64,000 bases of DNA from Nitrosopumilaceae archaeon. Its GTDB lineage: Archaea > Thermoproteota > Nitrososphaeria > Nitrososphaerales > Nitrosopumilaceae. The notes beneath the pieces were generated by a model, which made no database searches, had not been told where the DNA came from, and was given only the letters and a program-made list of their open reading frames with translations. A program made the position numbers and the translations under genes. The stretch spans positions 1,504,001-1,568,000 of the forward strand of contig OZ242274.1 in NCBI GenBank assembly GCA_965207375.1, given 5' to 3'. Of this stretch, positions 1,466 to 52,419 are shown one piece after another. How positions within the stretch are numbered: the stretch's first letter is position 1; each line of letters opens with the position of its first letter.

Positions 1466-1510
1466 CAATTAAAACAAGTATTTAATGAAAAATAGCAGAT
1501 TCTATGGGAT

Positions 1511-4096: not shown

Positions 4097-4969
4097 ATGG
4101 TAAATCAGTATTGTATTTTAGTAGACAAAAGAGATGTCGAAAAATTACGTATATTTCAAATTGGCAAATTCAATATGCAAATAAAAAAAATTTTAGATGA
4201 CCATGGATACAAATTTATCTGGGGGTTTCACAAAAGTCAGATATCTGATTCATGGAAAAAAATACGTAAAAATGATCGTGTGTTTTTTTCCATTCCTAAA
4301 AATAACTTTGAAATTACATCATTGGTGGCAAAGAAGCTGTTTGACAAGAAGATCGGAAAACGTCTTTGGCCTGACAACTTGGACTCACAAGAAATAACTC
4401 ATTTTTTGTTGTTTGATTCTATCCAACATGTGAATTTGTCGTTTCTTCAGACAATTGAAAATGCATCAGACGAAATCAAAATTCTATTTCCTGGAATATA
4501 TGAGCTCAAAAAAAGTTTTAAAATAAACATAGATAAATCAGACTTGCAGAACAAACATAAATCGATCCCAAAACCCTTCATCGTGCCCTCTACCAAAGTT
4601 GGGCCTGCACAAAAGGATATCTTTGAGGTTATACGATTCATACGTGATTCCACAAAGGTGAAAAAACTAAAAAAACTATACAACAACAAATGCCAAATTT
4701 GTAACTATACATTTGAGTACAAGAAAAATCACTTTTATTCTGAAGTACATCATTACAATCCTTTGAAAGCAAATGCCGATGATGAATTAGATAACATGAT
4801 TGTGGTTTGTCCAAACCATCATGCAGAATTTGATTACAACATGATTGCAATTGCTCATGATGGTACAAGTATTATAGATAAAAAAGGTAACAAAATTGCA
4901 ACAATATATTTTAAAGATGGGCACAGATTAAATATTAAAAATATTACAAACCAATTACGAGAAATTTGA
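4097..4969 (+). CDS. McrA-like HNH endonuclease with putative EVE/PUA-like N-terminal domain
   Basis: RD..KV..LK.LY...CQIC, YSEVHHYNPL, NMIVVCPNHHAEFD; N-terminal IWG..W.KI.KND.VFF pattern. Confidence 0.8.
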   Translation: MVNQYCILVDKRDVEKLRIFQIGKFNMQIKKILDDHGYKFIWGFHKSQISDSWKKIRKNDRVFFSIPKNNFEITSLVAKKLFDKKIGKRLWPDNLDSQEITHFLLFDSIQHVNLSFLQTIENASDEIKILFPGIYELKKSFKINIDKSDLQNKHKSIPKPFIVPSTKVGPAQKDIFEVIRFIRDSTKVKKLKKLYNNKCQICNYTFEYKKNHFYSEVHHYNPLKANADDELDNMIVVCPNHHAEFDYNMIAIAHDGTSIIDKKGNKIATIYFKDGHRLNIKNITNQLREI

Positions 4970-4970
4970 T

Positions 4971-7073
4971 ATGTTATTTCATGAACTTGACATCAAACCA
5001 TCTTATGATTCTAAGAAAACAGATGTATTTAATGAATTCTTTAACACTGTTTTACCACATTCAAAATACTATCGCAGATTTGGAGGGGTGTTTTCGGCAA
5101 AGCGATTTGCACTGATGGCTGAAGGTCTTCAAGAATTTATCAAGGAAAACAATGGAATGATGGAACTTGCAATAATTCCAAATTTTTCTCAGAATGACCG
5201 AGAAGCATTGATGAGAGGTGTATCTGTTGATGACATAGTTGCAAAAAATTGGATAGATGATCTGTCAAAAATCAGAGAAAAAATACTTGAGGATCATATA
5301 AGGGCGATTTCATGGATGATAGCAAATCAATATCTTACAGTCAAGATTATTCTACCAGAACATGAAGACGGTTCAATGTTTACCGAGGCCGAACTAAACG
5401 AGGTAGCAATGTTTCGACGAGAGATTGGAATTTTTTACAACAAGGAAGATAATTCACAACTGTCTTTTCACGGGATTATTGACAGGGATGATTCTGAAAT
5501 GGGTGAGATATACTCCTTGGATGTGTCAAGAAATTGGATAGAGACAGAAACAAGTAGAGTTGCATCTGATCACGAAGATTTTACAAATTACTGGAATGAC
5601 GAAACCATACAAATGGGAACACTGTCATGTAAAATAAGACCATTATCACAAAAGTTAGTAGATCATTTTAAAGTGAACTCTCCTAAAACAAAATCTGAGA
5701 TTCCGGATCTAAAAAAAATACCTGTTTTAAGAAAATATCAAATCGAGGCTATAGATGCATGGTTGGAAAATGACGGACGTGGTATATTTGAAATGGCCAC
5801 AGGGACCGGTAAGACATTTACTGCCATAGGAGGAATAAGAAAAATCCAAGAGATGGAAGACAAGTTGCTTGTTATAGTTGCTGTGCCGTATAGAAATTTA
5901 ATTGATCAATGGAAAAAAGAACTTGCAAAATGGTTTATTGATTCTATTATTCTCGAATCTGGAAGTTGGAGACGTGATTTACATGATGAGATTTCATATA
6001 TGAACAGAGCTAGAGAGAAAACATACTCCGTATTAATAACATCCCATGATCTGTTTTCAGATAATAAATTTCTTGAACAGATAGAAAATTGTCAATTTTC
6101 TACAATGCTACTAGTAGATGAGGCACATCATGTTGGTACATTTATTGGAAGAAGGGGTCTTTTACCGAATTATTCATACAGGATGGCATTATCTGCAACA
6201 ATTGAACGATATTTTGATGATGACGGTACATGTTTTTTACGAGATTATTTCAAAGGTTCAACTGGCAAATCCACGGTGATGGAATATTCACTGGAAATGG
6301 CAATCAAAGACAACAGATTATGCGGATACAACTATTACCCATTCTTTGTAGACTTAACCCTGGAAGAAATGACAGAATATCAAATACTGACATATCGAGC
6401 AGTTAGGCTGTTACATTCTAAGAAAACAGCGACACGAGAAAAAGGAGAGATGTTAATTAAAAAAAGAGCAAAAATTGTAAGAGATGCAAAAAATAAAATT
6501 AAGTGCTTAAAACAGATACTTCCACAAATCCCACACCTCAAACATCTTTTGATATTTTGCTCTGAAAATCAATTTGAGGCAATCGATGAAATACTAAACA
6601 ACCCAATAAAACACTGTGGTATAGACAGGTCACTTTTGTTTAGAAAAATCACTTATGAAAATCCACCTGATAAAAAAGACAGAACTAAAATTCTAAATGA
6701 CTTTGCAAATGAAGATTGGGACATATTATTATCAAACAAAATACTTGATGAGGGAATGGATATTCCACAGGCAAGAAGATGTATAGTTATGGCATCTACT
6801 GGAAACCCCACACAGTTTATCCAAAGACGTGGACGGGTATTACGTACATTTGCAGAACCATACAAGGACGGAAGTAGAAAAACACACGCAGATATTTTTG
6901 ATATTCTAGTGAAACCACAAATTAACAACCTTGATGATCCTGACTCCATCAAAATGGAGCTTGGTATGATCAAAAGTCAGTTATCAAGAATTACTCAGAT
7001 GAGTGAGTTGGCCATGAACAGAAAAGACTGTATGGAAAAAATCAAAGAATTTACATATGGATTTGAATTTTAA
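4971..7073 (+). CDS. pbeA: PbeA-like DEAH-box helicase with degenerate PLD-like N-domain (phosphorothioate-linked defence)
   Basis: LRKYQ, MATGTGKT, DEAHH, LSAT, LDEGMDIP, QFIQRRGRVLR; followed by small protein, SMC ATPase and EEYAN protein next to dnd genes. Confidence 0.8.
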   Translation: MLFHELDIKPSYDSKKTDVFNEFFNTVLPHSKYYRRFGGVFSAKRFALMAEGLQEFIKENNGMMELAIIPNFSQNDREALMRGVSVDDIVAKNWIDDLSKIREKILEDHIRAISWMIANQYLTVKIILPEHEDGSMFTEAELNEVAMFRREIGIFYNKEDNSQLSFHGIIDRDDSEMGEIYSLDVSRNWIETETSRVASDHEDFTNYWNDETIQMGTLSCKIRPLSQKLVDHFKVNSPKTKSEIPDLKKIPVLRKYQIEAIDAWLENDGRGIFEMATGTGKTFTAIGGIRKIQEMEDKLLVIVAVPYRNLIDQWKKELAKWFIDSIILESGSWRRDLHDEISYMNRAREKTYSVLITSHDLFSDNKFLEQIENCQFSTMLLVDEAHHVGTFIGRRGLLPNYSYRMALSATIERYFDDDGTCFLRDYFKGSTGKSTVMEYSLEMAIKDNRLCGYNYYPFFVDLTLEEMTEYQILTYRAVRLLHSKKTATREKGEMLIKKRAKIVRDAKNKIKCLKQILPQIPHLKHLLIFCSENQFEAIDEILNNPIKHCGIDRSLLFRKITYENPPDKKDRTKILNDFANEDWDILLSNKILDEGMDIPQARRCIVMASTGNPTQFIQRRGRVLRTFAEPYKDGSRKTHADIFDILVKPQINNLDDPDSIKMELGMIKSQLSRITQMSELAMNRKDCMEKIKEFTYGFEF

Positions 7074-7084
7074 GATTTTATCTA

Positions 7085-7093
7085 TTTATATAA
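7085..7093 (+). promoter_or_regulatory. Putative archaeal TATA box for the pbeB-like gene
   Basis: TTTATATAA about 20-27 bp upstream of GTG at 7112. Confidence 0.4.
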
Positions 7094-7111
7094 CAATTGT
7101 GGACAACATAC

Positions 7112-7336
7112 GTGGTAGTCCTTAATCCGATAATTCTTGATGCTCTAGATACGTATTTCAAAGAAAAACCAGACACCCCAACAAAGATGCAGCAATTGAT
7201 TAAAAAATTATTGGAGCTTGAAAGCGTTGCAAGCGGTACCAATGAGGGAATGGACAAACTATACGATCAGGTTCTTGATCAGTTTGTTTCTGATGATGAT
7301 TTTATGCAATGGAGTAAAAAATATGTCAGCGGATAA
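7112..7336 (+). CDS. pbeB: Small acidic PbeB-like protein (GTG start inferred; ORF track starts at 7097)
   Basis: Small helical ORF between the helicase and the SMC ATPase; overlaps the next start; assignment by synteny. Confidence 0.6.
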   Translation: MVVLNPIILDALDTYFKEKPDTPTKMQQLIKKLLELESVASGTNEGMDKLYDQVLDQFVSDDDFMQWSKKYVSG

Positions 7337-9422
7337 AGAGCGTCTTTTTATTAAAAAAATAGAGATGTCAAACGTAGGACGATTTTACGGTTCGGGTCAC
7401 TCCGTAATGCTTTCTAGCTCTACAGAAAAAAATATCACCGTAATTATAGGATACAGTGGAAGAGGCAAGTCAACAATTCATGATTTAATTTATTGGTGTC
7501 TTTATGGGGAACATAAAAAACACTCTGAAGATGAGCGTCGTGGATTAGATTATGGATTAATCAATGTGGATGCATTATCAAATCTATCAAAAGGAAACAG
7601 TGTAACTGCATCCATCACATTGACACTACACAATGACAAAGAAAAAAAATATGTCCTTACTAGAGAATTAATTGCAACATATAATCGAGACTCTACCAAA
7701 CGTGAATTTAAACCTGAAAACAACTCTCAAGTTCAATCGGGAATTGATTTTGAATCAACTGTTAGACTTGAAATGAAAGATGTTTCAGGTCAATTAATAC
7801 CAGAACGAAATCCAACAATGATTAGAAATGAAATGAATAAATATTTTCCACAACATCTATCTGATTTTTTCCTCTTTGATGGTGAAAATCTGATCAAATT
7901 TCAAAATAATACCTCCTCTGATTTTATAAAAAATGGCATTACGAAAATCTCTGGACTGGGAATTTTAGGATCTCTTTCAAAATCTGCTGGAAATACTGCA
8001 ACAAAAATAAGTAATCATCTTGGTGGCAAAAGCGCCGAAGCCGCACCATATTCGAGTACCGTAAAACGATTGACAATTCAAGCAAAAACACTACAAAACG
8101 AAATTGTAGAACATAAGACAAAATCAGATCGTTTTAGAATATTGCATGATGAAATATCGGAAAAAATTAGGCAAAACAAGGAAGGCTCTAAACTAGTCAA
8201 GGATGAAAAGCAAACTAGAAGAAACAAGAGCAACGCATCTAGGGATCTTAGAGAGACAAATGACCAAATAAAAGATATGCTTTTTGAGAAAATCCCACAG
8301 TTATTGATTAGAAATACGCTTGAAAAATCAGAAGAAATTTTTGCAAGGCTAGAAGATGAGGACAAGATACCTCCTTCAATATCTAGAGGTGCAATAGACA
8401 AAATTCTAGGTTCAGATCCGCTAAGATGCGTATGTGGAAGAGAGTTTGAGAAAAATCAACATGATCCAGACTCACCTTGGATGATTTTGAACAGAATAAA
8501 GGGTACGATTATTGAAGATGATCTATCACAAGGGATATCATTAGGACGTGACTTGATCAGTAGAATAATTGACAATGCATCTACTGAAAAATCAGGCAAG
8601 GACTATTATGCTTTGATAGACAAACGCAGGGAAAAAACAAGAGAGATTCAGGAATATAATGCAGAAATTGAAGAACTTACGGCCAAAATGAAGGATCTAG
8701 AATATGAAGATATGGAGAATCTTGGCACCCTAAAACAAGAATATATGGAGAATATGCTAGAGGAAAATGGAAACATCCGCTCCAAGCAAGAAAAACTTGA
8801 TGAATTGGAAAGTACCATCAAGGAAAATGAAAAACTACAAAATGTTGCACTAGAAAAAGAAAGAATATACAGTACAGAGATAAATAAAATATCTCTGGCA
8901 AATGCAGTCAGCAAATTTTCAAAGATCTTAGAAAAGCGAATTGAAGAGATTTTTAGAGACAAGACAGAGAAAACCACAAGCGAATATTTCCTTCAAAGTG
9001 CACCACAAAAAGAAGAATTTGATCAGGTTAACATTTCTGAAAATTATGATATTGCAGTAAAGGACGTAAATAACTTAACGGCGGGTCTATCTAAAGGTCA
9101 GGCCCATGTGCTTGGTCTGTCATATGTAGCAGGAATCAGAGAAATCACACACACTAACACGTTTTTGATTATAGATTCCCCATTACACAATATATCTGGA
9201 ACAGCACGAAATGAAATATCCGAGGTATTTTCAAAGTATTTACCAAATGTTCAAATCGTACTGCTTGTAACTGATACTGAATATCTTCACAGTGATCCAA
9301 ATGGTGCCAAACCAGTAAAGGACATTTTACGAACCAATGGACGAATATGGAAAGAATATTTCATAGATGAGGTAGAAACAGATGGAATAAAGAGCAGAAA
9401 AATCACGGAGTATACATCATAA
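7323..9422 (+). CDS. pbeC: PbeC-like SMC/Rad50-type ATPase (start MSADKE inferred)
   Basis: Walker A GYSGRGKST, FFLFDGE, CVCGR hook, coiled coils, LSKGQ signature, IIDSP Walker B. Confidence 0.8.
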   Translation: MSADKERLFIKKIEMSNVGRFYGSGHSVMLSSSTEKNITVIIGYSGRGKSTIHDLIYWCLYGEHKKHSEDERRGLDYGLINVDALSNLSKGNSVTASITLTLHNDKEKKYVLTRELIATYNRDSTKREFKPENNSQVQSGIDFESTVRLEMKDVSGQLIPERNPTMIRNEMNKYFPQHLSDFFLFDGENLIKFQNNTSSDFIKNGITKISGLGILGSLSKSAGNTATKISNHLGGKSAEAAPYSSTVKRLTIQAKTLQNEIVEHKTKSDRFRILHDEISEKIRQNKEGSKLVKDEKQTRRNKSNASRDLRETNDQIKDMLFEKIPQLLIRNTLEKSEEIFARLEDEDKIPPSISRGAIDKILGSDPLRCVCGREFEKNQHDPDSPWMILNRIKGTIIEDDLSQGISLGRDLISRIIDNASTEKSGKDYYALIDKRREKTREIQEYNAEIEELTAKMKDLEYEDMENLGTLKQEYMENMLEENGNIRSKQEKLDELESTIKENEKLQNVALEKERIYSTEINKISLANAVSKFSKILEKRIEEIFRDKTEKTTSEYFLQSAPQKEEFDQVNISENYDIAVKDVNNLTAGLSKGQAHVLGLSYVAGIREITHTNTFLIIDSPLHNISGTARNEISEVFSKYLPNVQIVLLVTDTEYLHSDPNGAKPVKDILRTNGRIWKEYFIDEVETDGIKSRKITEYTS

Positions 9423-9925
9423 TGTCAGAAAAGACAACAAGAGGAACAAAAATTGACATATCTGCAAAAAAAATTGTTGCAGGATGGCCAAAAGTAGGTT
9501 ACGACGGAAACAATGAGAAGATTCGTAGTTTTTACTATAGGGAAGCTGGTACCACAAAAGACAGAAAGTCATTATTTGTACACAAAAAGCTTGCTGATGT
9601 GTTTATTTTTGCAATGACGCTTGGAAAAAGAGCAGGAATAAAAAAACCATATGCCAACAAAAAAGATAGACAAGACAGTATCGATAGTGAATACATTGCC
9701 ACTAGACCAGAGTATGTCTGGATGATGATTGCCATTGCCATAGATGAATCAAAGGGTGATCTTGAAATTTTCAGTGACCCCAAAACACGGATCATCGATG
9801 TATGTGAAGAGTATGCCAATTATGGAATAGAGTTGCTGATAGAGATGGAACAAGATGCTAGTACTTCTGATCCCTTTTCAGGATATGAAAAGAAATTTGA
9901 AGATCTACTAAAAGAACTAGAATGA
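9422..9925 (+). CDS. pbeD: PbeD-like / phosphorothioation-associated small protein
   Basis: DVFIFAMTLG and CEEYANYGIELL motifs; TAATG coupling to the ATPase. Confidence 0.7.
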   Translation: MSEKTTRGTKIDISAKKIVAGWPKVGYDGNNEKIRSFYYREAGTTKDRKSLFVHKKLADVFIFAMTLGKRAGIKKPYANKKDRQDSIDSEYIATRPEYVWMMIAIAIDESKGDLEIFSDPKTRIIDVCEEYANYGIELLIEMEQDASTSDPFSGYEKKFEDLLKELE

Positions 9926-12135
9926 TGCAGTGCCCAATATGTAACGAGTCATTTGACACCCAGAAATTGTTTTCTGAACATCTTGAATATCATAAAAAAC
10001 AATCTTTTCTAAATCAAATACCTGAACCCGCCCAAATTCAAAATTCTGACCAGTCACAACATCGTTTGATAGATGTTACTAATTTCTTTGGAAAAGAAAG
10101 ATTTGAGACTATGGTTTTACAAAAATTACAAAACATTCAAGATATGGAAGAGTTGTTTCATAGGAGAAATTTTGTTGAGCAGGTAAAGAAACTAATTTCT
10201 AGACATCCGTTTATACATATTCCATATTTTGTAGATGATTTGTTATATGGAAATGAATCTAAATTTTTACGTAAGAAATATTACATTTCACATTCGCTGG
10301 CTCTAAAAAACACAGTGCATAAAATATTAAAGTTTGATAGAACACGATACCGTCAAAAGCAATATGATGATGCATTTGCAATGAACATGAAGATTCCAAC
10401 ATGGAATGATAAATATGATATTTTAAAAAATAACTGTGATTTTTTCAAAGACGAACTAACAGAATTGTTGTTTCTTAATGTTCTAAGATCGTTTATACTC
10501 ATAATAGTAACTGACTATGTAAATACGGGAATTTCAAAACAGGATATTATTACCAAATCTAGGCAATTACAGAATAATTATAACTTATTTAAATTCATTG
10601 ACGAACCATTAAAAAATTCTTTTACAAAGTATTTTGAAAATGCTTTTGATGAAACAGTTCTTATGCTTGTAGATGAATTAATTCTAGCAAAAATACTGAA
10701 AAAGAAATTAGGTAATTCAGAAATGATTGTGGGGAGAATGTCTATTGACAATCTCAAGGAAAGCATAATACGTGAATTAGAGTACAATAATGGTTCTCAA
10801 AGCGAATATGAGATCAAAGACAGAATAAAGGAACAATATCCGAGTTTGAAACTCTTACCCAATCTTGGAATCTGGGAGACTGCATTAAATGAACTATATC
10901 ATGAACAGATGATCAGATTTAAAACCGACCGTAACGGTAGACGTTCTTCAATAATCTTTCTAAATGAAAATTATCAGAAAATACAGCAACAGATTCAAAT
11001 GTTTGGAAGTGGTGATGTCAAGTTTTATGGAAGAAAAATAACACCTGATCAATTCATTGACGAGTTGAAGGATCTTGAGCTAGGTGACTTTAAAGATGAT
11101 GATGACCAAGTAACCCGTATAGCTGGATTGGTGCTTGCTGAATCCGTTAATCTTCAAGCCCCACACGAGCATATTTCACAATTTGACTTTTTGATTGACA
11201 TTACCGACTATCATTTTAGAGATGAACAGATCGAGACTATGAAAAAACTTGATTTCAAAATAAATTCTAGAATATTTCACTGTAAAGTAATGCTACATGA
11301 TACATTGAGCATGCAAAAATATGAACAAATTAAAGAATATCTACCAAATGGAGAACAGGCAGTTGTTATTACATTTCGGAAAATTCCATCAGATGTAAAA
11401 GCAGAATTGGAAAAAGATGATTCTATTCAGATAATTGATGAGGAAGGCATACGTATATGGGTTTCAATAACCTCAAAGATTCCATCTAGAGTAGGTTCTA
11501 TCGCAAAATTACACAAAGATCCAATCAGTGGATTAGAAAGAAGGTTGGTAAGAATCAATCGGGTCAATTATGAGGATGGATTAGCAACAGTTACCGTCTT
11601 GCCAGATAAAAATGATGCTGTGGTGCTTGTAAGGTCATTAGAGGAGATTTCATTAAATGAAGAACACCCAAAATATTTTGAGACACTAACTTGTAATTAC
11701 ATGGAGTTTTTAGATGTACTAGCCAAACTCACCACATTAGAGGATCTTGTTAACGGATTGTTTAATGTGAATATGCCTGACTCTTATCCAAAATCCACTT
11801 CGGTCACTATGTATTTTGAAAACTGTACAACAGAACTATTCCTGTCTATGCACCATAAGGACCGTATGCTTGATTGTGGTTGTCTGAGATGGCTTGAAAA
11901 CAAATTTTATTTGTGTCCACATCTGATCTATTTGATTGATTATACAGTGAGAACCAAGTATTTAGACACTTGGAATGATAAGGGCAATTTGATGAAATCG
12001 ATATTGGAGAAAATTATAATAAAAAACATATCCACTATATTGGACAGACTCGGATTAGAATCACAACAAAATGATGAACTTTACAATAAAATGAAAGAAT
12101 TCATTTTGTGTGTATATGAAACTAGAAAAGATTGA
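9922..12135 (+). CDS. Uncharacterised 737-aa protein: C2H2 Zn finger, Mrr-like nuclease-fold region, SWIM Zn finger
   Basis: CPIC..F.....HLEYH; FDFLI..IFHCK..AVVITF..IQIIDEEGI; DCGC..LCPHL; ATGA overlap with pbeD. Confidence 0.6.
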   Translation: MMQCPICNESFDTQKLFSEHLEYHKKQSFLNQIPEPAQIQNSDQSQHRLIDVTNFFGKERFETMVLQKLQNIQDMEELFHRRNFVEQVKKLISRHPFIHIPYFVDDLLYGNESKFLRKKYYISHSLALKNTVHKILKFDRTRYRQKQYDDAFAMNMKIPTWNDKYDILKNNCDFFKDELTELLFLNVLRSFILIIVTDYVNTGISKQDIITKSRQLQNNYNLFKFIDEPLKNSFTKYFENAFDETVLMLVDELILAKILKKKLGNSEMIVGRMSIDNLKESIIRELEYNNGSQSEYEIKDRIKEQYPSLKLLPNLGIWETALNELYHEQMIRFKTDRNGRRSSIIFLNENYQKIQQQIQMFGSGDVKFYGRKITPDQFIDELKDLELGDFKDDDDQVTRIAGLVLAESVNLQAPHEHISQFDFLIDITDYHFRDEQIETMKKLDFKINSRIFHCKVMLHDTLSMQKYEQIKEYLPNGEQAVVITFRKIPSDVKAELEKDDSIQIIDEEGIRIWVSITSKIPSRVGSIAKLHKDPISGLERRLVRINRVNYEDGLATVTVLPDKNDAVVLVRSLEEISLNEEHPKYFETLTCNYMEFLDVLAKLTTLEDLVNGLFNVNMPDSYPKSTSVTMYFENCTTELFLSMHHKDRMLDCGCLRWLENKFYLCPHLIYLIDYTVRTKYLDTWNDKGNLMKSILEKIIIKNISTILDRLGLESQQNDELYNKMKEFILCVYETRKD

Positions 12136-13030
12136 AAATATCCTTGTATTTTGAATTCCTTGGAAGTAAATTTAGATAATCTTTCAAAAGTTCAAACATC
12201 TTTTCATGTGAATAATCTACGTAATTTTGCTCTGAATCAAGTTGTCTATAATATTGTCGTAACCAACTCTGTGTTCTTTCTATATTTATTTTGGTGTTAG
12301 GATCATCAGATATCTGCTGTTCATATTCTGTTGATTCGTTTATGGATTTGACAGAATCAGATGTGTTGTGTGCTATTTTTGAACTAGATTTATTTCTGTA
12401 CCATGGGTCATATCCTAACTTATCTAACATATATTCCCATGATTCAAATTCTGTATCATAATAGGATAGATTTATCTCAGAATATTTGTCAATATCTTGT
12501 TTTGTTGGAGTTTTCCCAATTATTTCTCGAATTCTTTCAAACTCTATTATTAGAGATATTTTGTTAGGTGGATTCATTGTTTGTGCAAAGCGAAGTATTT
12601 CGTCAATTGTTACATTAAATTCTATTTGAATATCTGTTACAGTTATTTTTTCTCTTGTTAGCATATCTTCGAATTTATTTACTGGATTATCATGTTTTTC
12701 AAAAATACATTTTGCAATCTTTTTGATAATTATGGCTCTTTGTTTACTGAGATATGACAGGTCAATTTGTGATTCATAATTGTGGTTTTTAGGATTTGAT
12801 TGATGTTTTGATTCTGGTTTTATTTTTCTTAAATATCGATAAATTATACCGTTGCAACAGTTACATAGCCATATTGTTGAATCATCCGCTGTTTTACTTT
12901 CATCCTCCAAATGACACATATTTTGTTCTATCCAAATGTTGCAAACAAAACACATACCATGTTTGGTTTTGTGTTGATTTTGTATCTGAAATTTTCTACA
13001 TTTACCTTTACAAAATTTAACAGTTTTCAC
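12122..13030 (-). CDS. Cys-rich Zn-binding protein with homing-endonuclease-associated repeat
   Basis: CKGKC, CFVC, CNCC; IGKTPTKQDIDKYS...YY..EFESW...L..LG. Confidence 0.55.
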   Translation of the reverse strand: MKTVKFCKGKCRKFQIQNQHKTKHGMCFVCNIWIEQNMCHLEDESKTADDSTIWLCNCCNGIIYRYLRKIKPESKHQSNPKNHNYESQIDLSYLSKQRAIIIKKIAKCIFEKHDNPVNKFEDMLTREKITVTDIQIEFNVTIDEILRFAQTMNPPNKISLIIEFERIREIIGKTPTKQDIDKYSEINLSYYDTEFESWEYMLDKLGYDPWYRNKSSSKIAHNTSDSVKSINESTEYEQQISDDPNTKINIERTQSWLRQYYRQLDSEQNYVDYSHEKMFELLKDYLNLLPRNSKYKDIFNLF

Positions 13031-13441: not shown

Positions 13442-14530
13442 ATGGATGAGGAACGTGCTGTAGGCAGTGAAACGTACAGCTTTGATGCGTTACGTGGAAT
13501 CCAGGCAGGTCGTAGCTATTACGTTGCAATGTGTCCACTAAAGATAATTCCAAAGCTGTTTATCTTTAATGATTATGATTTACCACCGGACCTTCGAGCC
13601 CAACGAACTCTCAAGGACTCTAGAATCCCAGCACTAAAAAATTACATTTTACAAAACCCAAAAAACTACATATTTTCATCACTTACTGCCTCAGTTGACG
13701 GTAATATGAAGTTCATACCATCAGTAAATCTAGGTCCGGATGGTAAGCTTGGAAGACTTTACATCAACATGGATTCTCGAATGTTGATAAATGACGGACA
13801 GCACAGGCGCAAGGCAATTGAGGAGGCACTCAAAGACAAACCCGAACTTGGACATGAGACAATCTCTGTTGTCTTTTTTGAAGATTCAGGACTAGAGCGA
13901 AGCCAACAGATGTTTTCGGACCTTAACAAAAACGCCATGAAAACTACAAAATCATTGAACATACTTTATGATCATCGTGATGTATTTAGTAAATTCATTG
14001 TAGACATGACAAAAAAAATTGAGATATTCCGAGACAGGGTAGAACTAGAAAACACTACATTATCAAACCGTACAAAAAAAGTATTCACATTAAATGGTGT
14101 CACAGATGCCACAATGAGATTTCTTGGTAGCAAATCCATCAAAAAGATATCAACACAACAAAAAGAGGACATATACAAGTTTTGGAATACTTTGGCAGAA
14201 ACAATTCCAGAATGGAAATTATTACTAGAAGGTAACATTGAACCAAAGGATATACGTAAAGTGTACATTCATGGAAATACAAACATGCTCAATACGTTAG
14301 GAATTGCAGCGCATACCATCAAACAGGAATATCCAGATTCCTGGATAAAACAATTAGGTAAACTGCGTAATGTCGACTGGTCAAGACGCAACCCGATGTG
14401 GGAGGGAAACTTGCTGCAAGGTGGACGCATGGTAAAGACTACTATGGGGCTTGAACTTGGGGCAAATGTTTTATTGAGAAATTGTGGGATAAAACTGTCA
14501 AAGGCAAGACTGGGGTTTGAAAGTAAATGA
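13442..14530 (+). CDS. dndB: DNA sulfur modification protein DndB
   Basis: RAQRTL..SRIP, YIFSSLTASVDG, INDGQHR, QQMFSDLN. Confidence 0.93.
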   Translation: MDEERAVGSETYSFDALRGIQAGRSYYVAMCPLKIIPKLFIFNDYDLPPDLRAQRTLKDSRIPALKNYILQNPKNYIFSSLTASVDGNMKFIPSVNLGPDGKLGRLYINMDSRMLINDGQHRRKAIEEALKDKPELGHETISVVFFEDSGLERSQQMFSDLNKNAMKTTKSLNILYDHRDVFSKFIVDMTKKIEIFRDRVELENTTLSNRTKKVFTLNGVTDATMRFLGSKSIKKISTQQKEDIYKFWNTLAETIPEWKLLLEGNIEPKDIRKVYIHGNTNMLNTLGIAAHTIKQEYPDSWIKQLGKLRNVDWSRRNPMWEGNLLQGGRMVKTTMGLELGANVLLRNCGIKLSKARLGFESK

Positions 14531-15960
14531 GCGTTTTTGATCAAAAATCACTAGATACAATATATACAGAAATACAACAGGTGTACCTCAACGATGAGCG
14601 CCCATGGATTTTGGGATACAGTGGAGGAAAAGATTCCACATGCATGGTACAAATCGTATGGAAGGCGTTATCTGGATTACCTGCGGAACAACTGACCAAA
14701 AAAATCTATGTGATATCTTCTGATACTTTGGTAGAGTCGCCCCAAATTGTAGACAGAATTACTGGCTCTTTGTCCAGAATAGAAAAGGCTGCCAAAGACA
14801 CGAAACTACCAATATCTACAAATTTACTGCGACCACCAATTTCTGATACCTTTTGGGTCAGAATTTTAGGACTTGGATATCCTGCACCGACTTCAATGTT
14901 TCGCTGGTGTACTGAAATGCTAAAGATTGCAAATGCAGACAGATTCATCAAAGAAAGAGTTTCTGAATATGGTGAGGTTATCGTGCTTTTGGGAACCCGG
15001 AAAAGCGAAAGTACCACAAGACAGCAAACAATGAATCTTTTAGAGATAGAAAATAGTGTATTATCACATCACAAAAAGTTTGCACAGACATATGTGTATA
15101 CTCCATTAGTTGATTTTGATACACAAGATGTCTGGAACTATCTACTTCAAGACGATAATCCATGGGGAGAAAACAACCGTGATCTACTTGCGTTGTACCA
15201 GGATGCAAATGCTGCTGAATGTCCTTTGGTAGTAGATACTAGTACACCCTCTTGTGGTAGTGGGAGATTTGGATGTTGGACATGTACCGTAGTAGACAAG
15301 CAAAAGTCGTTGGATTCCATGATTGAGAGCGGTGCAGAATGGATGGAGCCACTAGCCGAGCTACGTCACGAATTAAAACTTACACAAGAGCCTGAAATGT
15401 GGCCAAAGATACGCCAGATAACTAGAAGAAACGGACATGTTGATCTCAAAAACAATGGAACAGACTATACTCCTGGCCCTTATACTCTAGATTTTAGAAA
15501 ACAATATCTCGAAAAACTGCTTTACGGTCAGCAAAAGATACAAAGACATGATCCTGCAATGGTTCTGATTTCAGAAGACGAAATACACGAGATACAAAGA
15601 ATATGGCGCATGGAGCAGGGAGATTGGCAAAATACCGCATATGCAATATATGAAAAGGTAACAGGCATACGCCTTGAATCAATATCTGATGACAGGGGTC
15701 AGTTTGGCAGAACAGAACAAAGCCTGCTCGAGCAAGTATGCAAAAACCACGATGTACCGTACAAACTAGTAAGTAATTTGTTAAATGCAGAGTTACAACT
15801 ACAGGGTGGTTCCAGACATTCAAAGATATTTTCAAAATTAAAATCAGAGTTTTCAAAGGAATGGAGAGATGACATTGATACTATACGAAAGGAACTGTTT
15901 GAACAACGTGATTTAGAAGAGGAGGTAAAGCCAAATGCTTTTACGGAAAATAATACTTGA
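14527..15960 (+). CDS. dndC: DNA phosphorothioation sulfurtransferase DndC
   Basis: PWILGYSGGKDS, DTLVE, GYPAP..FRWCT, ECPLV, SCG.GRFGCWTCTVV. Confidence 0.95.
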   Translation: MSVFDQKSLDTIYTEIQQVYLNDERPWILGYSGGKDSTCMVQIVWKALSGLPAEQLTKKIYVISSDTLVESPQIVDRITGSLSRIEKAAKDTKLPISTNLLRPPISDTFWVRILGLGYPAPTSMFRWCTEMLKIANADRFIKERVSEYGEVIVLLGTRKSESTTRQQTMNLLEIENSVLSHHKKFAQTYVYTPLVDFDTQDVWNYLLQDDNPWGENNRDLLALYQDANAAECPLVVDTSTPSCGSGRFGCWTCTVVDKQKSLDSMIESGAEWMEPLAELRHELKLTQEPEMWPKIRQITRRNGHVDLKNNGTDYTPGPYTLDFRKQYLEKLLYGQQKIQRHDPAMVLISEDEIHEIQRIWRMEQGDWQNTAYAIYEKVTGIRLESISDDRGQFGRTEQSLLEQVCKNHDVPYKLVSNLLNAELQLQGGSRHSKIFSKLKSEFSKEWRDDIDTIRKELFEQRDLEEEVKPNAFTENNT

Positions 15961-17935
15961 TGATTTTAAAACATATGGTGGAAGACATGAGATAGATCTT
16001 GTCACGACACCTGACAAGCCAATAATTTTATGTGGTGGAACAAATGGTGCAGGAAAAACTACACTGTTTGATTCAATATCCTTGTGTCTTTATGGTAGAC
16101 ATGCAACAGAATCAAAAATGACACTAAAGCAGTATAAACAACAAATTCTCAAATCCTTTCACAAATCACAGGGTGTAACGGCACAGGAGGCGTCAATTAC
16201 ACTAGAGTTTGACTATGCCCATGATTCACAGATAACCAGATACATGATAACACGTGGCTGGCAAAACGATAACGGCACACCTGTAGAGGATCTTCATATC
16301 AGCAAAAAATCACCAAAAGATGCAGAATATCAGAGTCTTGATTCAGTCGAGCAGTCACAGTGGCAGACATTTGTGGATCATCTTTTACCAAGTGGAATCA
16401 CAAAACTGTTCTTTTTTGATGGTGAAAAGATCAAAAAGATTGCAGAATCTGGCAAGGAAGACGAGCATATTCGTTCCTCTTTTGATACGTTACTGGGACT
16501 AGACCTGATTACACAGCTTTGTGAAGACATTGGATTATACATTTTGAGAAATTCTGATGACTCGGACCAAAACATACTAGAAGATATAGACAAAAAGATA
16601 CAGGAGAAAAAGGATGCAGAGTGTAAAATAGATGAGCTTGGAGAAAAGCAGGCATATTTGCGCTCTGAGATGGAAGGACTTCAAACAAAACTAAAAGTAT
16701 TAGAAGAAAAGTTTACGAAATTGGGTGGAAACTTTGCCCAGAGGAGACAACATCTAGTAGAGCAAAAGACATCCCTTGAGACTAGATTGCACGAAGTAGA
16801 AAAATATATTCGTGATATATGTACCGATACACTTCCACTATCACTTGTTCCAAGACAGATGGATATGCTCCAAAAAGAATTAAAGGAAGATACACAAAAA
16901 ATGCAAAGCAGATTCGAAAAGGACATTTTGAATAATTCCATACAAGACATATCTGATAACTTTGAGAAACTACTTGAAGGTAAAATACAAAACGATATAC
17001 TTGGGAAACTCCGTTGTGCTATACAGGATAAAATAAAATCGCTTCCCAAATCAGATAATTTACTGCACAATCTTTCACTCGATGATAATCGTGCAATGCG
17101 AGAATTAATTCATGATATTGCAACACATGATCTCAAGGAGATTGAAGAGTACACGGTACAACATGACAAAATACTTGCTGAATTAAGTCGTGTAAAGTCT
17201 GATTTGGATATTTCACCGCAACAAGATGAGATAGGACCTATATTTTCAGAAATAAAACAGAAAAGCTCTGATTTAGGTGAGATGCAAAAGGAACTTGACC
17301 AACTTGAGAATCTAGAGGCACAACAAAAGACGATAATAGTGCTCATAAACTCGCGCATACGTCAGGATCTTGCAAAGAAAAAGATACACTCTAGAGAGAA
17401 AATAGGATTAAACCTAGCACCTCGTGTTCAGGATACACTGGAGGAATATGCAAAAGAGATTCGTCTCAAAAAGATATCCCTGCTTGAGCAAAACATACTA
17501 GATGCAATAAAACGATTATTTCATAAAAAGGACTTTATCACAGGAATCAAGATAGATCCAGACACCTTTGAGATAAAACTGTACGAAAATGATGAAGAAA
17601 AAACACGAGATATGTTGTCCAAGGGGGAACTTCAGATTTACTCTACTGCAATTGTGTGGGGTTTGGCAAAAACTTCTGGCAGACCACTTCCATTTGTTAT
17701 TGATACACCACTTGCACGTCTTGATTTGAAACATCGGGAAAATCTAGTTAGTGGTTTCTTTCCACATGCATCACATCAGACAATAATACTTTCCACAGAT
17801 ACTGAGATAACTGCACCGTACCATATGGCTTTACAAGACTATACATCTAAAGAGTTGAAAATATCACAAAATAACGGAAAAACTGCACTAGAGGACGGAT
17901 ATTTTTCATTGGAGGAGCAAATTGAAGTTCGGTAA
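15935..17935 (+). CDS. dndD: DNA sulfur modification ATPase DndD
   Basis: GTNGAGKTT, LFFFDGEKI, LSKGE, VIDTPLARLD..HR, ASHQTIILSTDTEI. Confidence 0.93.
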   Translation: MLLRKIILDDFKTYGGRHEIDLVTTPDKPIILCGGTNGAGKTTLFDSISLCLYGRHATESKMTLKQYKQQILKSFHKSQGVTAQEASITLEFDYAHDSQITRYMITRGWQNDNGTPVEDLHISKKSPKDAEYQSLDSVEQSQWQTFVDHLLPSGITKLFFFDGEKIKKIAESGKEDEHIRSSFDTLLGLDLITQLCEDIGLYILRNSDDSDQNILEDIDKKIQEKKDAECKIDELGEKQAYLRSEMEGLQTKLKVLEEKFTKLGGNFAQRRQHLVEQKTSLETRLHEVEKYIRDICTDTLPLSLVPRQMDMLQKELKEDTQKMQSRFEKDILNNSIQDISDNFEKLLEGKIQNDILGKLRCAIQDKIKSLPKSDNLLHNLSLDDNRAMRELIHDIATHDLKEIEEYTVQHDKILAELSRVKSDLDISPQQDEIGPIFSEIKQKSSDLGEMQKELDQLENLEAQQKTIIVLINSRIRQDLAKKKIHSREKIGLNLAPRVQDTLEEYAKEIRLKKISLLEQNILDAIKRLFHKKDFITGIKIDPDTFEIKLYENDEEKTRDMLSKGELQIYSTAIVWGLAKTSGRPLPFVIDTPLARLDLKHRENLVSGFFPHASHQTIILSTDTEITAPYHMALQDYTSKELKISQNNGKTALEDGYFSLEEQIEVR

Positions 17936-18296
17936 TGTAAAGACAAGTTCTAGAACTACAAACTTGTTTGGACATCTAAAGCCCAGTCTAAATCTGACAC
18001 CTAACATTCTTGCCCGATTTGCAATTTGTCTTTCAATACAACAGAGGGGAATTCCAAATCCTGATGAATATAACAAGGATGGTTCAGAGTTTACACCTGC
18101 CGTTTTGTTCGGGAATCATGAACCATTATACCTCGCATTGATGATATCACGATTACGACAAGACGGCCTTGACCCAGAAGAGTATTTGGGTGAGATGACT
18201 AGGGCACATCTAAACCGTGGTGCAATTGCATTCAAGCAACGAGTAGATAGTCTGTCTGATTTTTACAAATTGGTAAAGGAGGCTAGATTGGGTTGA
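17922..18296 (+). CDS. dndE: DNA sulfur modification protein DndE
   Basis: LTPNILARFAICLS, LFG, RAHLNRG; overlaps the dndD stop. Confidence 0.9.
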   Translation: MKFGNVKTSSRTTNLFGHLKPSLNLTPNILARFAICLSIQQRGIPNPDEYNKDGSEFTPAVLFGNHEPLYLALMISRLRQDGLDPEEYLGEMTRAHLNRGAIAFKQRVDSLSDFYKLVKEARLG

Positions 18297-18332
18297 GTAA
18301 CTGTTTCTTTTGTGACTGCACATTAAACCGAG

Positions 18333-19505
18333 ATGAGTTTTTTAGATATGCCTGATTCAAAACCTCCGATATATCTTGACTCTCATGCTACCACGCCTGT
18401 TGATCCACGCGTGGTAGATGCAATGTTGCCGTACTTTACTAGTATTTTTGGAAACTCTTCAAGCCTTGATCATATGTTTGGTCATGATGCCTCTGAAGCT
18501 GTAAAAAAAGCACGTGCAGATATTGCTGGTGCCATAAATGCGGATTCCAGTGATGTGATATTCATGTCTGGTGCCACAGAATCTGATAATCTTGCGTTAA
18601 CCGGTGTCATGTTAAAAAGTAAAAAGAATCATCTCATTACATGTCAAACAGAACACAAGGCCGTACTTGATACTGCAAAGAATCTAGAATCACAGGGAAT
18701 ACATGTGACATATCTGCCTGTAGATGAGTTTGGTCTGATAGACACAGAACAATTAATTGATGTCATATCTGATGACACTGCTCTGATATCTGTAATGTTT
18801 GCAAATAATGAGATTGGTACCATACAGGATATTGCAGAGATTGGAAAGATTGCACACGAGAACAATGTGTTATTTCATACAGATGCTGCCCAGGCAGTAG
18901 GACACATTCCAATTGATGTGCAAAAGCTGAATATTGATTTGATGTCGTTTTCATCTCACAAGATTTACGGGCCAAAGGGAATTGGTGCCTTGTATATGCG
19001 GGGTATTATGCCTAGGGTAAAGGTTGCACCAATTATTCATGGTGGTGGGCAGGAGAAAAACGTCCGCTCTGGAACACTTAATGTTCCTGGAATTGTTGGC
19101 TTTGCAAAGGCTGTAAGTATAGCACAGCGTGAAATGGATGCAGAAAATATACGGTTTAGGCACTGGAGTAAACAGATGTTGGATGAACTGTTTGTGGTAG
19201 ATGCCAAGCTGAATGGACATCCTACAAGACGACTATTTCACAACCTTAACATCCGGTTTGAAGGAATAGATGGAAAGGCCATAATCAATTCTGTTTCCAA
19301 AATGTTAGCTATCTCAGCAGGATCTGCATGTACTACTCAAATGGTAGAACCGTCACATGTACTTCTTGCCCTAGGACTGACAGAAAAACAAGCGCATTCT
19401 TCAATTAGAATTGGATGCGGCAGGTTCAACACTGACGAAGAGATCAAAATTGCTACTTATGAAATATCTGAATGTATATCTTCTCTAACCCGAATTCAAA
19501 TCTAA
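18333..19505 (+). CDS. dndA: Cysteine desulfurase DndA/IscS
   Basis: IYLDSHATTP, SGATESDN, HTDAAQ, SSHKIYGPKG, SAGSACT; directly after dndE. Confidence 0.9.
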   Translation: MSFLDMPDSKPPIYLDSHATTPVDPRVVDAMLPYFTSIFGNSSSLDHMFGHDASEAVKKARADIAGAINADSSDVIFMSGATESDNLALTGVMLKSKKNHLITCQTEHKAVLDTAKNLESQGIHVTYLPVDEFGLIDTEQLIDVISDDTALISVMFANNEIGTIQDIAEIGKIAHENNVLFHTDAAQAVGHIPIDVQKLNIDLMSFSSHKIYGPKGIGALYMRGIMPRVKVAPIIHGGGQEKNVRSGTLNVPGIVGFAKAVSIAQREMDAENIRFRHWSKQMLDELFVVDAKLNGHPTRRLFHNLNIRFEGIDGKAIINSVSKMLAISAGSACTTQMVEPSHVLLALGLTEKQAHSSIRIGCGRFNTDEEIKIATYEISECISSLTRIQI

Positions 19506-20344: not shown

Positions 20345-20375
20345 GATTTTTTAAGAGGAATAGAAAAAGCAATTC

Positions 20376-25772: not shown

Positions 25773-26013
25773 ATATGGTTAGTTCCGATTATAGATCACA
25801 GGTCACTATTTAGACAATATTTTTTGACATACCGATCCAAATAACGGAATAATCCTACCCATCTTAACCTTGAGAGAAAAAGATGGGCAAGATATCCCAA
25901 TAAAATCCGGAACACGAGGGTTTAAAGTATTTCAATCTGCACTAGGCAGGCTGCCCATTTCGTTTGGAACAGGAAACAACACGAGGTATGGACTCTCAAA
26001 CGCAGTCAACATG

Positions 26014-39978: not shown

Positions 39979-39980
39979 TA

Positions 39981-52415: not shown

Positions 52416-52419
52416 TTTT

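What the first reader, a model, noticed from the sequence alone, without database searches (positions are those of the whole stretch)
9922..12135. Candidate fifth Pbe component: C2H2 + Mrr-like + SWIM multidomain protein
Seen: ATGA overlap with pbeD; N-terminal C2H2 finger; a segment FDFLI..IFHCK..AVVITF..IQIIDEEGI echoing Mrr catalytic domains (D..QxK read here as D..HCK); a beta-rich SH3/KOW-like stretch; a C-terminal CxC..CxH SWIM motif. I do not recognise this architecture from any named system. Inference: an effector or sensor dedicated to this Pbe variant.
Basis: partly seen in the sequence, partly recalled or inferred. Interest (0 to 1): 0.7.

Follow-up and report, generated by a model that had tools for sequence, protein, structure and literature searches.

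The report
FokI/Mrr-like nuclease gene ending Pbe operon
This gene encodes a large, previously unnamed protein of ammonia-oxidising archaea that combines DNA-reading modules, a restriction-nuclease-type core and a SWIM zinc finger, and it sits as a conserved extra last gene of a phosphorothioate-linked (Pbe) antiviral operon.

Summary
ORF 9922-12135 (+, 737 aa) overlaps pbeD by ATGA. It carries an N-terminal C2H2 finger, the FDFLID/IFHCK/AVVITF/IQIIDEEGI segment, a five-strand beta barrel and a CxC..CxH motif.

No Pfam, NCBIfam or PADLOC model reaches threshold. The gene is nevertheless real: 99 unnamed homologue clusters, and 14 of 14 genome loci are Nitrososphaerota.

An AlphaFold2 model (pLDDT 84.8) best matches FokI as a whole chain. 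Its isolated core (residues 362-522) best matches MspJI, LlaBIII, EcoRII and HindIII, so a PD-(D/E)xK fold is predicted, with D422 and H453-x-K455 on the canonical strands.

Seven of 14 loci repeat the order HNH-pbeA-pbeB-pbeC-pbeD-X. Five form a sister clade beside an SNF2 helicase and a NOV_C nuclease.

Best reading: a FokI/Mrr-type reader-nuclease subunit recruited to the archaeal Pbe system, whose PbeA lacks the HKD motif (0 of 119). Catalysis, DNA target and binding partners are untested. I class it as a new variant of a known kind, of moderate interest.

The parts
9922..12135 (+). The gene itself: 737-aa multidomain protein (P0001), last gene of the Pbe-type operon
   Evidence: family; model (mean pLDDT 84.8, pTM 0.67)
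9922..10002 (+). Residues 1-27: C2H2 zinc finger (beta-beta-alpha). Residues 28-51 form a disordered linker.
   Evidence: The finger occurs only in the window's clade. Other members carry Mrr_N (L008, P0129; E 4e-8) or DUF7662 (P0092, sub-threshold) instead.
10075..11004 (+). Residues 52-361: helical region ending in two helix-turn-helix units with beta-hairpin wings (E259-271, E331-347); presumed DNA-recognition part
   Evidence: Secondary structure. Whole-chain matches to FokI (E 6.1e-4, 611 columns) and to tandem winged-helix proteins Stn1-C and YceH (prob 0.87-0.92) are. Which query residues those hits cover is not printed, so the assignment is inferred.
11005..11487 (+). Residues 362-522: restriction-endonuclease (PD-(D/E)xK)-type core. 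DDQVTR (394-399) lies at helix 1, D422 before strand 2, H453-C-K455 in strand 3, Q479 in strand 4 and Q503 in strand 5.
   Evidence: Pfam Mrr_cat is sub-threshold in 6 of 67 members and in 2 of 56.
11500..11646 (+). Residues 527-575: five-stranded KOW/SH3-like beta barrel
   Evidence: Pfam KOW sub-threshold in 14 of 67
11869..11961 (+). Residues 650-680: SWIM-type zinc finger (C652, C654, C665, H667), followed by two C-terminal helices
4097..4969 (+). HNH nuclease gene, first gene of the operon (ends 2 nt before pbeA)
   Evidence: Pfam HNH E 2.5e-4. Weak hit to NF045808, a PT-DNA-binding restriction endonuclease, E 6.4e-8 and below cut-off. Homologue present in 6 of 7 Pbe loci.
4971..7073 (+). 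pbeA: SF2 helicase with a PLD-like N-terminal domain that lacks the HKD motif
   Evidence: PADLOC PbeA E 1.2e-164; TIGR04095 E 2.8e-111; HxKxxxxD present in 0 of 119 closest homologues
7097..7336 (+). Candidate pbeB (small protein, 79-aa ORF)
   Evidence: ORF. No family hit. Small ORFs lie at the same place in L001, L002, L004, L006 and L008.
7218..9422 (+). pbeC: CxC-type ABC ATPase. The true start is probably near 7329, because the models align from residue 44-45.
   Evidence: PADLOC PbeC E 4.3e-62; the sequence holds RCVCG
9422..9925 (+). pbeD (DndE-like, 167 aa); its stop overlaps the start of the gene studied
   Evidence: TIGR04062 dnd_assoc_4 E 3.8e-8, below cut-off; homologues in 6 loci; overlap shown
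13442..19505 (+). dndB, dndC, dndD, dndE, dndA: phosphorothioate modification genes next to the operon

Best explanation
The gene encodes a FokI/Mrr-type 'reader plus cutter' protein that lineages of ammonia-oxidising archaea have added as the last, translationally coupled gene of their Pbe operon (the CxC-ABC ATPase/DndE-centred system): HNH-pbeA-pbeB-pbeC-pbeD-X.

Shown:
- The operon position and its conservation.
- The domain order: C2H2 finger (replaced by an Mrr_N winged helix in some relatives), a helical/winged-helix region, a PD-(D/E)xK-fold core, a KOW-like barrel and a SWIM finger.
- Strict conservation of D394/D395, D422, H453, K455 and the four SWIM ligands.

Inferred:
- The N-terminal modules read DNA.
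- The single nuclease core, with its acidic residues on helix 1 and strand 2 and the lysine on strand 3, nicks or cuts DNA.
- The KOW-SWIM tail ties the protein to the SF2 translocase or to DNA. The Pbe machine (PbeA motor, PbeC-PbeD scanner) would then gain a cleavage/recognition subunit that acts on DNA lacking the host's phosphorothioate mark.

This would compensate for the PbeA of this lineage, which has no HKD catalytic motif.
For: Operon. The genes are separated by 2 nt to overlaps from 4097 to 12135. The same order is found in L001, L002, L004, L006, L007 and L013, and a rearranged but adjacent version in L008. That is 7 of 14 loci. dnd genes lie within 10 kb in 6 of those 7.

Shared contigs. 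24 contig lengths are shared between the target-homologue table and the PbeA-homologue table, as compared. This is a proxy for the same contigs.

Fold.
- Whole chain: FokI, E 6.1e-4, prob 0.93, 611 columns; MspJI, prob 1.00.
- Core alone: MspJI E 3.7e-3, prob 0.99, TMq 0.49-0.51; LlaBIII prob 0.96, TMq 0.50, rmsd 4.6 over 156 columns; then EcoRII, HindIII, VC1899, AspBHI, NucS and EcoO109I.
- Secondary structure: D422 and H453-x-K455 fall on consecutive strands after a helix that carries DDQ.

Sequence.
- Mrr_cat is sub-threshold but co-linear in 6 of 67 members. The best is P0143, E 8e-4, 20.0 bits against 21.
- Mrr_N is found at the N-terminus of L008 and P0129.
- Residue conservation is given.
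- The closest 119 PbeA homologues have no HxKxxxxD in their first 260 residues (0 of 119), and none of the 120 proteins listed has a PLD Pfam domain.

Sister clade. It is again beside an SF2 (SNF2) helicase and a REase-type (NOV_C) protein. SWIM was first defined in bacterial SWI2/SNF2 ATPases (passage in PMC10236294 quoting Makarova 2002).

Literature. PMC10853773 (passages) states that CxC-ABC/DndE (Pbe) neighbourhoods recruit diverse nucleases, including REase fused to a HARE-HTH reader.
Against: - No sequence model reaches significance. hhalign of the family against E. coli Mrr gives only a 34-column match at E 0.3-0.5. The PDB sequence search found nothing.
- No fold match of the isolated core has E<=1e-3, and TM-scores are about 0.5. 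The whole-chain FokI TM-scores are 0.15-0.19.
- His at the (D/E) position of (D/E)xK is unusual.
- In the sister clade the motif is H-x-S (L009, L010) or Y-x-K (L011, L012, L014), so catalysis may not be the conserved function.
- The position of the lost HKD motif in PbeA was mapped by eye only.
- There are no experimental data on any family member.
Confidence: 0.5

Rival explanations
1. Non-catalytic sensor or adaptor. The REase-fold core is a DNA- or ligand-binding module. The protein recognises DNA status through its finger, winged helices and core, and it regulates or positions the real nucleases (the upstream HNH, and PbeA).
For: His replaces the acidic residue in the strand-3 motif. The sister clade lacks either the Lys or the His (5 of 5 clade-B loci). 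The invariant positions across all 15 rows are DDQVTR, F-D, Q479 and Q503 rather than the lysine. PMC10853773 describes inactive REase domains in related systems (passages).
Against: H453 and K455 are kept in 135 and 138 of 148 members, and D394/D395/D422 in 142-145. That pattern is typical of an active site. The Pbe-linked clade keeps H-x-K in all 10 rows.
Confidence: 0.27
2. An autonomous Type IV (Mrr/MspJI-like) modification-dependent restriction enzyme that merely rides in the same defence island. It would cut foreign modified DNA independently of Pbe.
For: The best fold matches are the modification-dependent enzymes MspJI and AspBHI. Mrr_N heads occur in some members. The window is a defence island that also holds GmrSD, AlbA_2 and a Type ISP enzyme.
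Against: - The ATGA overlap with pbeD.
- Fixed terminal position in 6 colinear loci, with gaps of at most 42 nt after pbeD.
- None of the 14 loci shows a full-length copy standing alone. The two outside both contexts are truncated, at 524 and 561 aa.
- The two clades of the tree each keep their own helicase partner.
Confidence: 0.13
3. A domesticated transposase-like or regulatory protein (zinc finger, catalytic core and SWIM, as in MuDR-type transposases) with no defence role.
For: The order N-terminal zinc finger, core, C-terminal SWIM recalls MULE transposases (recalled; SWIM in MuDR is stated in PMC10236294). The window is rich in IS elements.
Against: The core matches REases, not RNase-H-type transposases. 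There is a single copy in the window (tblastn). No match was found in plasmid or phage collections. The operon position is fixed.
Confidence: 0.04

Closest known systems
FokI (Type IIS restriction endonuclease; PDB 2fok, 1fok)
   Same: Best whole-chain structural match (E 6.1e-4, prob 0.93, 611 aligned columns). Same order: a multi-module helical/winged-helix DNA-recognition part followed by one PD-(D/E)xK cleavage domain.
   Different: - TM-score is only 0.15-0.19 and identity 10%.
- This protein adds a C2H2 finger, a KOW-like barrel and a SWIM finger.
- It has H-x-K rather than the acidic-x-K motif.
- It is an operon subunit, not a solitary enzyme with a partner methyltransferase.
[quoted passage not shown] 12 in PMC3479186)
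   Same: Top matches of the isolated core (prob 0.94-0.99, TMq about 0.5). Both have a reader domain N-terminal to the nuclease domain.
   Different: MspJI has no KOW or SWIM tail. Sequence similarity is not detectable.
EcoKMrr / Pfam Mrr_cat (PF04471) with Mrr_N (PF14338)
   Same: Mrr_N is significant in two family members (E 4e-8). Mrr_cat gives repeated co-linear sub-threshold hits (6 of 67). By eye, the motif layout D...(Q/H)xK...T/S-rich strand...hhD lines up with the E. coli Mrr sequence.
   Different: The profile-profile test was not significant. A roughly 25-residue helix is inserted between strands 2 and 3. The protein is 2.4 times longer than Mrr.
PbeABCD / CxC-ABC ATPase-DndE systems (PMC6459918; PMC10853773)
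   Same: The gene is embedded in such a locus next to dndBCDEA. PbeA, PbeC and PbeD are recognised.
   Different: The described system has four genes. Neither paper's text mentions a SWIM, Mrr or C2H2 component or a pbeE. Here there are six genes, and PbeA lacks the HKD motif.
SWIM zinc-finger proteins linked to SWI2/SNF2 ATPases (Makarova 2002, as quoted in PMC10236294)
   Same: CxCxnCxH signature. The sister clade lies beside an SNF2 helicase and the window's clade beside the SF2 helicase PbeA.
   Different: Pfam SWIM does not reach threshold (best E 0.003). Fusion of SWIM to a REase core and a KOW barrel was not found in the papers searched.

Membership tests
PD-(D/E)xK (restriction-endonuclease-like) fold | alpha-beta-beta-beta-alpha-beta core recognisable by structure comparison | tested here: met
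   Core model pLDDT 82.2, pTM 0.81. Of the top 8 PDB rows, 7 are chains of restriction endonucleases (MspJI x4, EcoRII x2, HindIII) and 1 is the Type ISP restriction-modification enzyme LlaBIII, with prob 0.69-0.99 and TMq up to 0.51. No match has E<=1e-3.
PD-(D/E)xK (restriction-endonuclease-like) fold | Catalytic triad: D on strand 2 and (D/E)xK on strand 3 | tested here: inconclusive
   D422 is kept in 142 of 148 and K455 in 138 of 148, but the middle acidic residue is His (135 of 148). A conserved DD at 394-395 on helix 1 could substitute (inference). 3D clustering was not checked because no coordinates were available.
Mrr family (Pfam Mrr_cat PF04471) | Score above the Pfam gathering threshold (21 bits) | tested here: not met
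   Best 20.0 bits (P0143). 6 of 67 and 2 of 56 members score at E<=0.1 or E<=0.05. The window protein itself has no hit. hhalign against Mrr gave E 0.3-0.5.
Mrr family | N-terminal Mrr_N winged helix | tested here: not met
   The window protein has a C2H2 finger instead. Mrr_N is present only in L008 and P0129.
SWIM zinc finger (Pfam PF04434) | CxCxnCxH signature | tested here: met
   C652, C654, C665, H667. The pattern is in 144 of 148 members. CxH sits at the start of a helix in the model.
SWIM zinc finger (Pfam PF04434) | Score above the gathering threshold (19.6 bits) | tested here: not met
   Best 17.5 bits (P0122). 5 of 67 members at E<=0.1. None for the window protein.
C2H2 zinc finger | Cx2Cx12Hx3-5H pattern with a beta-beta-alpha fold | tested here: met
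   Residues 4-24. Beta-beta-alpha in the model. Pfam score is sub-threshold, 18.5 bits against 27.
Pbe (CxC-ABC ATPase-DndE) defence system component | Conserved operonic linkage with pbeA, pbeC and pbeD | tested here: met
   7 of 14 genome loci, plus the window. All 8 rows fall in one clade together with two truncated copies. ATGA overlap shown.
Pbe (CxC-ABC ATPase-DndE) defence system component | Required for, or contributing to, PT-dependent protection against viruses | not testable with these tools
   Needs genetics or biochemistry.
KOW motif (PF00467) | Score above the gathering threshold (22.3 bits) | tested here: not met
   Best 22.2 bits (P0128). 14 of 67 members at E<=0.1 at the same position. 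The model shows a five-strand barrel at 527-575.

The most novel reading that the evidence does not exclude
The family defines a new class of helicase-tethered restriction subunit: a FokI/Mrr-like reader-nuclease whose KOW-SWIM tail docks it onto SF2 translocases. In ammonia-oxidising archaea it would have taken over DNA cleavage from a PbeA that lost its HKD nuclease. That makes it the actual effector of phosphorothioate-dependent immunity there. Its sister clade would play the same role in an undescribed system made of an SNF2 helicase, a NOV_C protein and two paralogous ~400-aa proteins carrying a DGNRR motif.
Probability: 0.22. Interest if true: 0.7.

Novelty: new variant of a known kind. 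Interest (0 to 1): 0.52.

Why it matters
How Pbe-type phosphorothioate systems stop viruses is unsettled. The original report saw no DNA degradation, and a later analysis argued that the HKD nuclease of PbeA must cut (PMC10853773, passages).

In marine ammonia-oxidising archaea, which are globally abundant, PbeA appears to lack that motif. Two extra nuclease-type genes are fixed in the operon instead. One of them is this FokI/Mrr-like protein with a SWIM finger.

That handle could be used to test where discrimination and cleavage reside in Pbe systems. It would also assign a prokaryotic role to the SWIM finger next to SF2 motors.

If it is only an accessory Type IV enzyme, the finding is an ordinary addition to a defence island.

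Tried and rejected
Sequence routes that gave nothing:
- PADLOC and NCBIfam gave no hit for the protein.
- A profile search of PDB sequences gave only chance hits at E>=0.17.
- ESM Atlas features for residues 355-600 and 56-360 gave nothing usable.
- hhalign of the family against E. coli Mrr, and against a 16-sequence Mrr alignment, was not significant.
- An HMM built from enterobacterial Mrr proteins found nothing in the family. The Mrr homologue search had returned only proteins of at least 70% identity, so that profile was narrow.

Other searches:
- tblastn against plasmids and phages found no match.
- The BFVD fold search had no match at E<=1e-3. Weak rows included several viral 'restriction endonuclease' models.
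- The first genome scan, with the single protein, found no locus. The alignment query found 14.

Complex prediction: PbeA (full length) with residues 530-737 of the protein returned 'no answer', score 0.00. This is neither support nor evidence against binding.

Rejected or untested ideas:
- I first guessed that the sister-clade neighbours were sspABCD. PADLOC and Pfam rejected this.
- The ParB/Srx-like reading of the two ~400-aa neighbours rests on a recalled motif only. hhalign against DndB and GmrSD, and NCBIfam, gave nothing.
- The RPB5 chains among the fold hits are taken to reflect the REase-like fold of RPB5 (recalled), not a KOW match.

Not available:
Its Supplementary Data S1 may list these archaeal neighbourhoods.
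Full report
**Observation.** ORF 9922-12135 on the plus strand encodes 737 residues. Its ATG overlaps the TGA of the preceding 167-aa gene in the sequence ATGA.
- a C2H2 pattern at residues 4-24;
- the segment FDFLID / IFHCK / AVVITF / IQIIDEEGI between residues 421 and 510;
- a beta-rich stretch after residue 527;
- C652-x-C654...C665-x-H667.

None of them reaches a curated threshold in Pfam. NCBIfam and PADLOC give no hit at all.

**The gene is real and belongs to a family.** A word-indexed search found 99 clusters at E<=1e-3. Nearly all are 690-760 aa, and none carries a name other than 'hypothetical protein'. An exhaustive HMMER search of 1.84 billion representatives found 116. In 148 members of at least 480 aa, conservation is:

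| Residue(s) | Members keeping it (of 148) |
|---|---|
| G370, R371 | 148 |
| D394, D395 | 145 each |
| Q396 | 146 |
| R399 | 146 |
| D422 | 142 |
| H453 | 135 |
| K455 | 138 |
| Q479 | 134 |
| Q503 | 143 |
| R523 | 146 |
| E575 | 146 |
| four SWIM ligands | 145-146 |

The C2H2 finger occurs in 65 of 148 members, all in the window's clade. Other members start with an Mrr_N winged helix (L008 and P0129, E 4e-8) or a sub-threshold DUF7662. All 14 loci recovered from one-genome-per-species contigs are Nitrososphaerota, mostly Nitrosopumilaceae. tblastn found nothing in the plasmid or phage collections. The window itself is archaeal, with a TFIIB gene at 48724-49626.

**Surroundings in the window.** The upstream genes are:
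- an HNH protein (4097-4969);
- PbeA (4971-7073, PADLOC E 1.2e-164);
- a 79-aa ORF in the place of PbeB (7097-7336);
- PbeC (to 9422, E 4.3e-62, with a CVC motif);
- a DndE-like PbeD (9422-9925, TIGR04062 E 3.8e-8, below cut-off).

They are all separated by 2 nt to overlaps. Downstream lie a convergent HNH_repeat gene, then dndB-C-D-E-A, an AlbA_2 protein and a GmrSD/HEC-06 protein.

**Neighbourhood survey.** I called ORFs in the 14 loci. I matched them to the window's proteins with phmmer and clustered them.
- Seven loci (L001, L002, L004, L006, L007, L008, L013) hold PbeA, PbeC and the target together.
  - Six are colinear with the window.
  - L008 is rearranged: the target is divergent from the HNH gene, and an IS630-type transposase sits inside the operon.
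  - PbeD is degraded in L002. The HNH gene is present in 6 of the 7. At least dndA is within 10 kb in 6 of the 7.
- Five loci (L009-L012, L014; 26-29% identity) place the homologue beside a different conserved set: an SNF2 helicase, a NOV_C (PF13020) protein and two paralogous ~400-aa proteins. Three of these loci also hold a type II methyltransferase, and two a beta-CASP nuclease.
- Two loci (L003, L005) hold truncated copies of 524 and 561 aa in neither context.

A maximum-likelihood tree separates the SNF2-linked rows (100/100) from the Pbe-linked rows plus the two truncated copies (100/100). As a proxy for further co-occurrence, 24 contig lengths are common to the homologue tables of the target and of PbeA.

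**Structure.** AlphaFold2 on the 56-sequence alignment gave mean pLDDT 84.8 and pTM 0.67. From the secondary structure, the domains are:
- a beta-beta-alpha finger (1-27);
- a disordered linker;
- a helical region (52-361) ending in two helix-turn-helix units with hairpin wings;
- an alpha/beta core (about 375-516);
- a five-strand barrel (527-575);
- helices and a small sheet;
- the SWIM unit (650-680), with CxC on a strand and CxH at the start of a helix;
- two terminal helices.

Foldseek of the whole chain against the PDB gave FokI as the only matches at E<=1e-3. These were 2fok_A (E 6.1e-4, prob 0.93, 611 columns) and 2fok_B. Next came 1fok, MspJI (prob 1.00 over 183 columns), the FokI-like nickase N.BspD6I, VC1899 and the tandem winged-helix proteins Stn1-C and YceH. 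TM-scores for FokI are low (0.15-0.19), as expected if domain orientations differ.

I then modelled residues 362-522 alone, with the 14 locus homologues as the alignment (pLDDT 82.2, pTM 0.81). Its best PDB matches are:
- MspJI (E 3.7e-3, prob 0.99, TMq 0.49-0.51);
- the Type ISP enzyme LlaBIII (prob 0.96, TMq 0.50, rmsd 4.6 Å over 156 columns);
- EcoRII, HindIII, VC1899, AspBHI, NucS, EcoO109I and Can2.

No match is at E<=1e-3, but the list is coherent, so the fold is of the PD-(D/E)xK type. On that topology DDQVTR (394-399) opens helix 1, D422 precedes strand 2 and H453-C-K455 lies in strand 3. A helix of about 25 residues is inserted between the two strands.

**Sequence-level support for 'Mrr-like' is weak but consistent.** Pfam Mrr_cat appears below threshold in 6 of 67 distant members, always covering the C-terminal half of the profile at the same family position. 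The best is 20.0 bits against a cut-off of 21. KOW follows it in 14 of 67, and SWIM appears in 5 of 67. Profile-profile comparison with E. coli Mrr was not significant. I therefore file the core under the REase fold. I call it Mrr/MspJI-like in how it looks, not a tested member of Pfam Mrr_cat.

**How it most likely works.** The layout is that of FokI, Mrr and MspJI: reader modules in front of a single nuclease domain. MspJI and FokI are described that way in PMC3479186 (passages). The variable N-terminal heads (C2H2, Mrr_N, DUF7662) fit a DNA-reading role.

The strictly conserved acidic residues and lysine fit an active site. The DD on helix 1 could supply the acidic ligand that His453 replaces (inference).

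The SWIM finger was first defined in bacterial SWI2/SNF2 ATPases and is predicted to bind DNA or proteins (PMC10236294, passage quoting Makarova 2002). Both clades of this family sit beside an SF2 motor, PbeA in one and SNF2 in the other. A docking role for the KOW-SWIM tail is therefore plausible but not shown.

The closest 119 PbeA homologues have no HxKxxxxD motif in their first 260 residues, and none of the 120 proteins listed has a PLD Pfam domain. PMC10853773 argues that the HKD nuclease of PbeA is what cuts in these systems (passages). In this archaeal lineage that activity may therefore have passed to the two added nuclease-type genes, the HNH and this protein. I give this integrated reader-nuclease reading 0.5.

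**Rivals.**
- A non-catalytic sensor or adaptor (0.27). It is favoured by the His and by the sister clade, where the motif is H-x-S or Y-x-K in 5 of 5 loci.
- An autonomous Type IV enzyme riding in the island (0.13). It is disfavoured by the ATGA overlap, the fixed operon position and the absence of intact solitary copies.
- A transposase-like protein (0.04). It is disfavoured by the fold, the single copy and the fixed position.

**Comparison with what is known.** PbeABCD was described with four genes. The full texts of PMC6459918 and PMC10853773 contain no mention of pbeE, SWIM, Mrr or C2H2 in this context. A library search for DndE together with SWIM found only an unrelated paper. A search for 'PbeE' found 48 papers, of which the five listed use it as an unrelated acronym. 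PMC10853773 does state that these neighbourhoods recruit diverse nucleases, including a REase fused to a HARE-HTH reader, so the principle is known. What is new is:
- this particular family;
- its REase-KOW-SWIM architecture;
- its fixation in the Pbe operon of ammonia-oxidising archaea;
- the apparent loss of the PbeA HKD motif.

That paper's supplementary tables could not be opened and may already list such loci.

**Verdict.** It is a new variant of a known kind, of moderate interest (0.52). Function is inferred from anatomy and context only.

Noticed in passing
window 4097-4969 (+): An HNH nuclease gene ends 2 nt before pbeA. A homologue is present upstream of pbeA in 6 of 7 Pbe loci, which makes it a second conserved extra component of this archaeal Pbe operon. 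Only its HNH part weakly matches the PT-DNA-binding restriction endonuclease model NF045808. Its N-terminal 180 residues are unassigned.
   Followed up: partly
window 4971-7073 (+), residues 1-260 of PbeA: None of the 119 closest PbeA homologues has an HxKxxxxD motif in the first 260 residues, and none of the 120 proteins listed has a PLD Pfam domain. By eye, the expected His position is Phe or Leu (residue 148). The HKD nuclease of PbeA therefore seems degenerate in this lineage.
   Followed up: partly
L009 1-9800; L010 7900-15000; L011 8300-17700; L012 9900-18600; L014 9900-18500: A conserved cluster not recognised by PADLOC as a system. It holds a homologue of the studied protein, two paralogous ~400-aa proteins with motifs YNIxNGRFAAEY, (V/I)DGNRR and LWKLEAGIQL, an SNF2 helicase and a NOV_C protein. 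Some loci add a type II methyltransferase or a beta-CASP nuclease. It may be an undescribed defence or restriction system of marine Nitrososphaerota.
   Followed up: partly
window 12122-13030 (-): A convergent gene with a 'homing endonuclease associated repeat' (PF18780) overlaps the 3' end of the studied gene by 14 nt. Relatives lie just downstream of the target in L001, L005 and L006, with a fragment in L002.
   Followed up: no
window 19562-22172 (+): Directly after dndA lie an AlbA_2/Schlafen-domain protein and a GmrSD-type protein. The latter matches PADLOC HEC-06 (E 1.6e-98) and also 'Orf5' models.
   Followed up: no
window 42864-46967 (-): A Type ISP restriction-modification enzyme of 1367 aa (coupler and C-terminal specificity domains). 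Its helicase domain starts at residue 26, so there seems to be no room for the N-terminal nuclease domain that such enzymes usually carry (recalled).
   Followed up: no
window 22458-27006, 37996-41214, 47108-47969, 51278-53458, 61015-61287: A very high density of transposase genes and fragments: IS66, IS110, DDE_Tnp_4, DDE_Tnp_1, IS630-type DDE_3 and rve_3.
   Followed up: no
L008 5278-6291 (-); L002 9481-10136; L003 2638-4212; L005 9437-11593: Signs of decay in relatives. An IS630-type transposase is inserted between pbeA and pbeB/pbeC in L008. pbeD is reduced to a 63-aa ORF in L002. Copies of the studied gene are truncated (524 and 561 aa) outside any Pbe context in L003 and L005.
   Followed up: partly
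window 5-3905: The window opens with the C-terminal half of an SNF2-type helicase (DrmD/BrxH-like), followed by two HNH-domain genes on the minus strand. The defence island therefore extends upstream of the Pbe operon.
   Followed up: no
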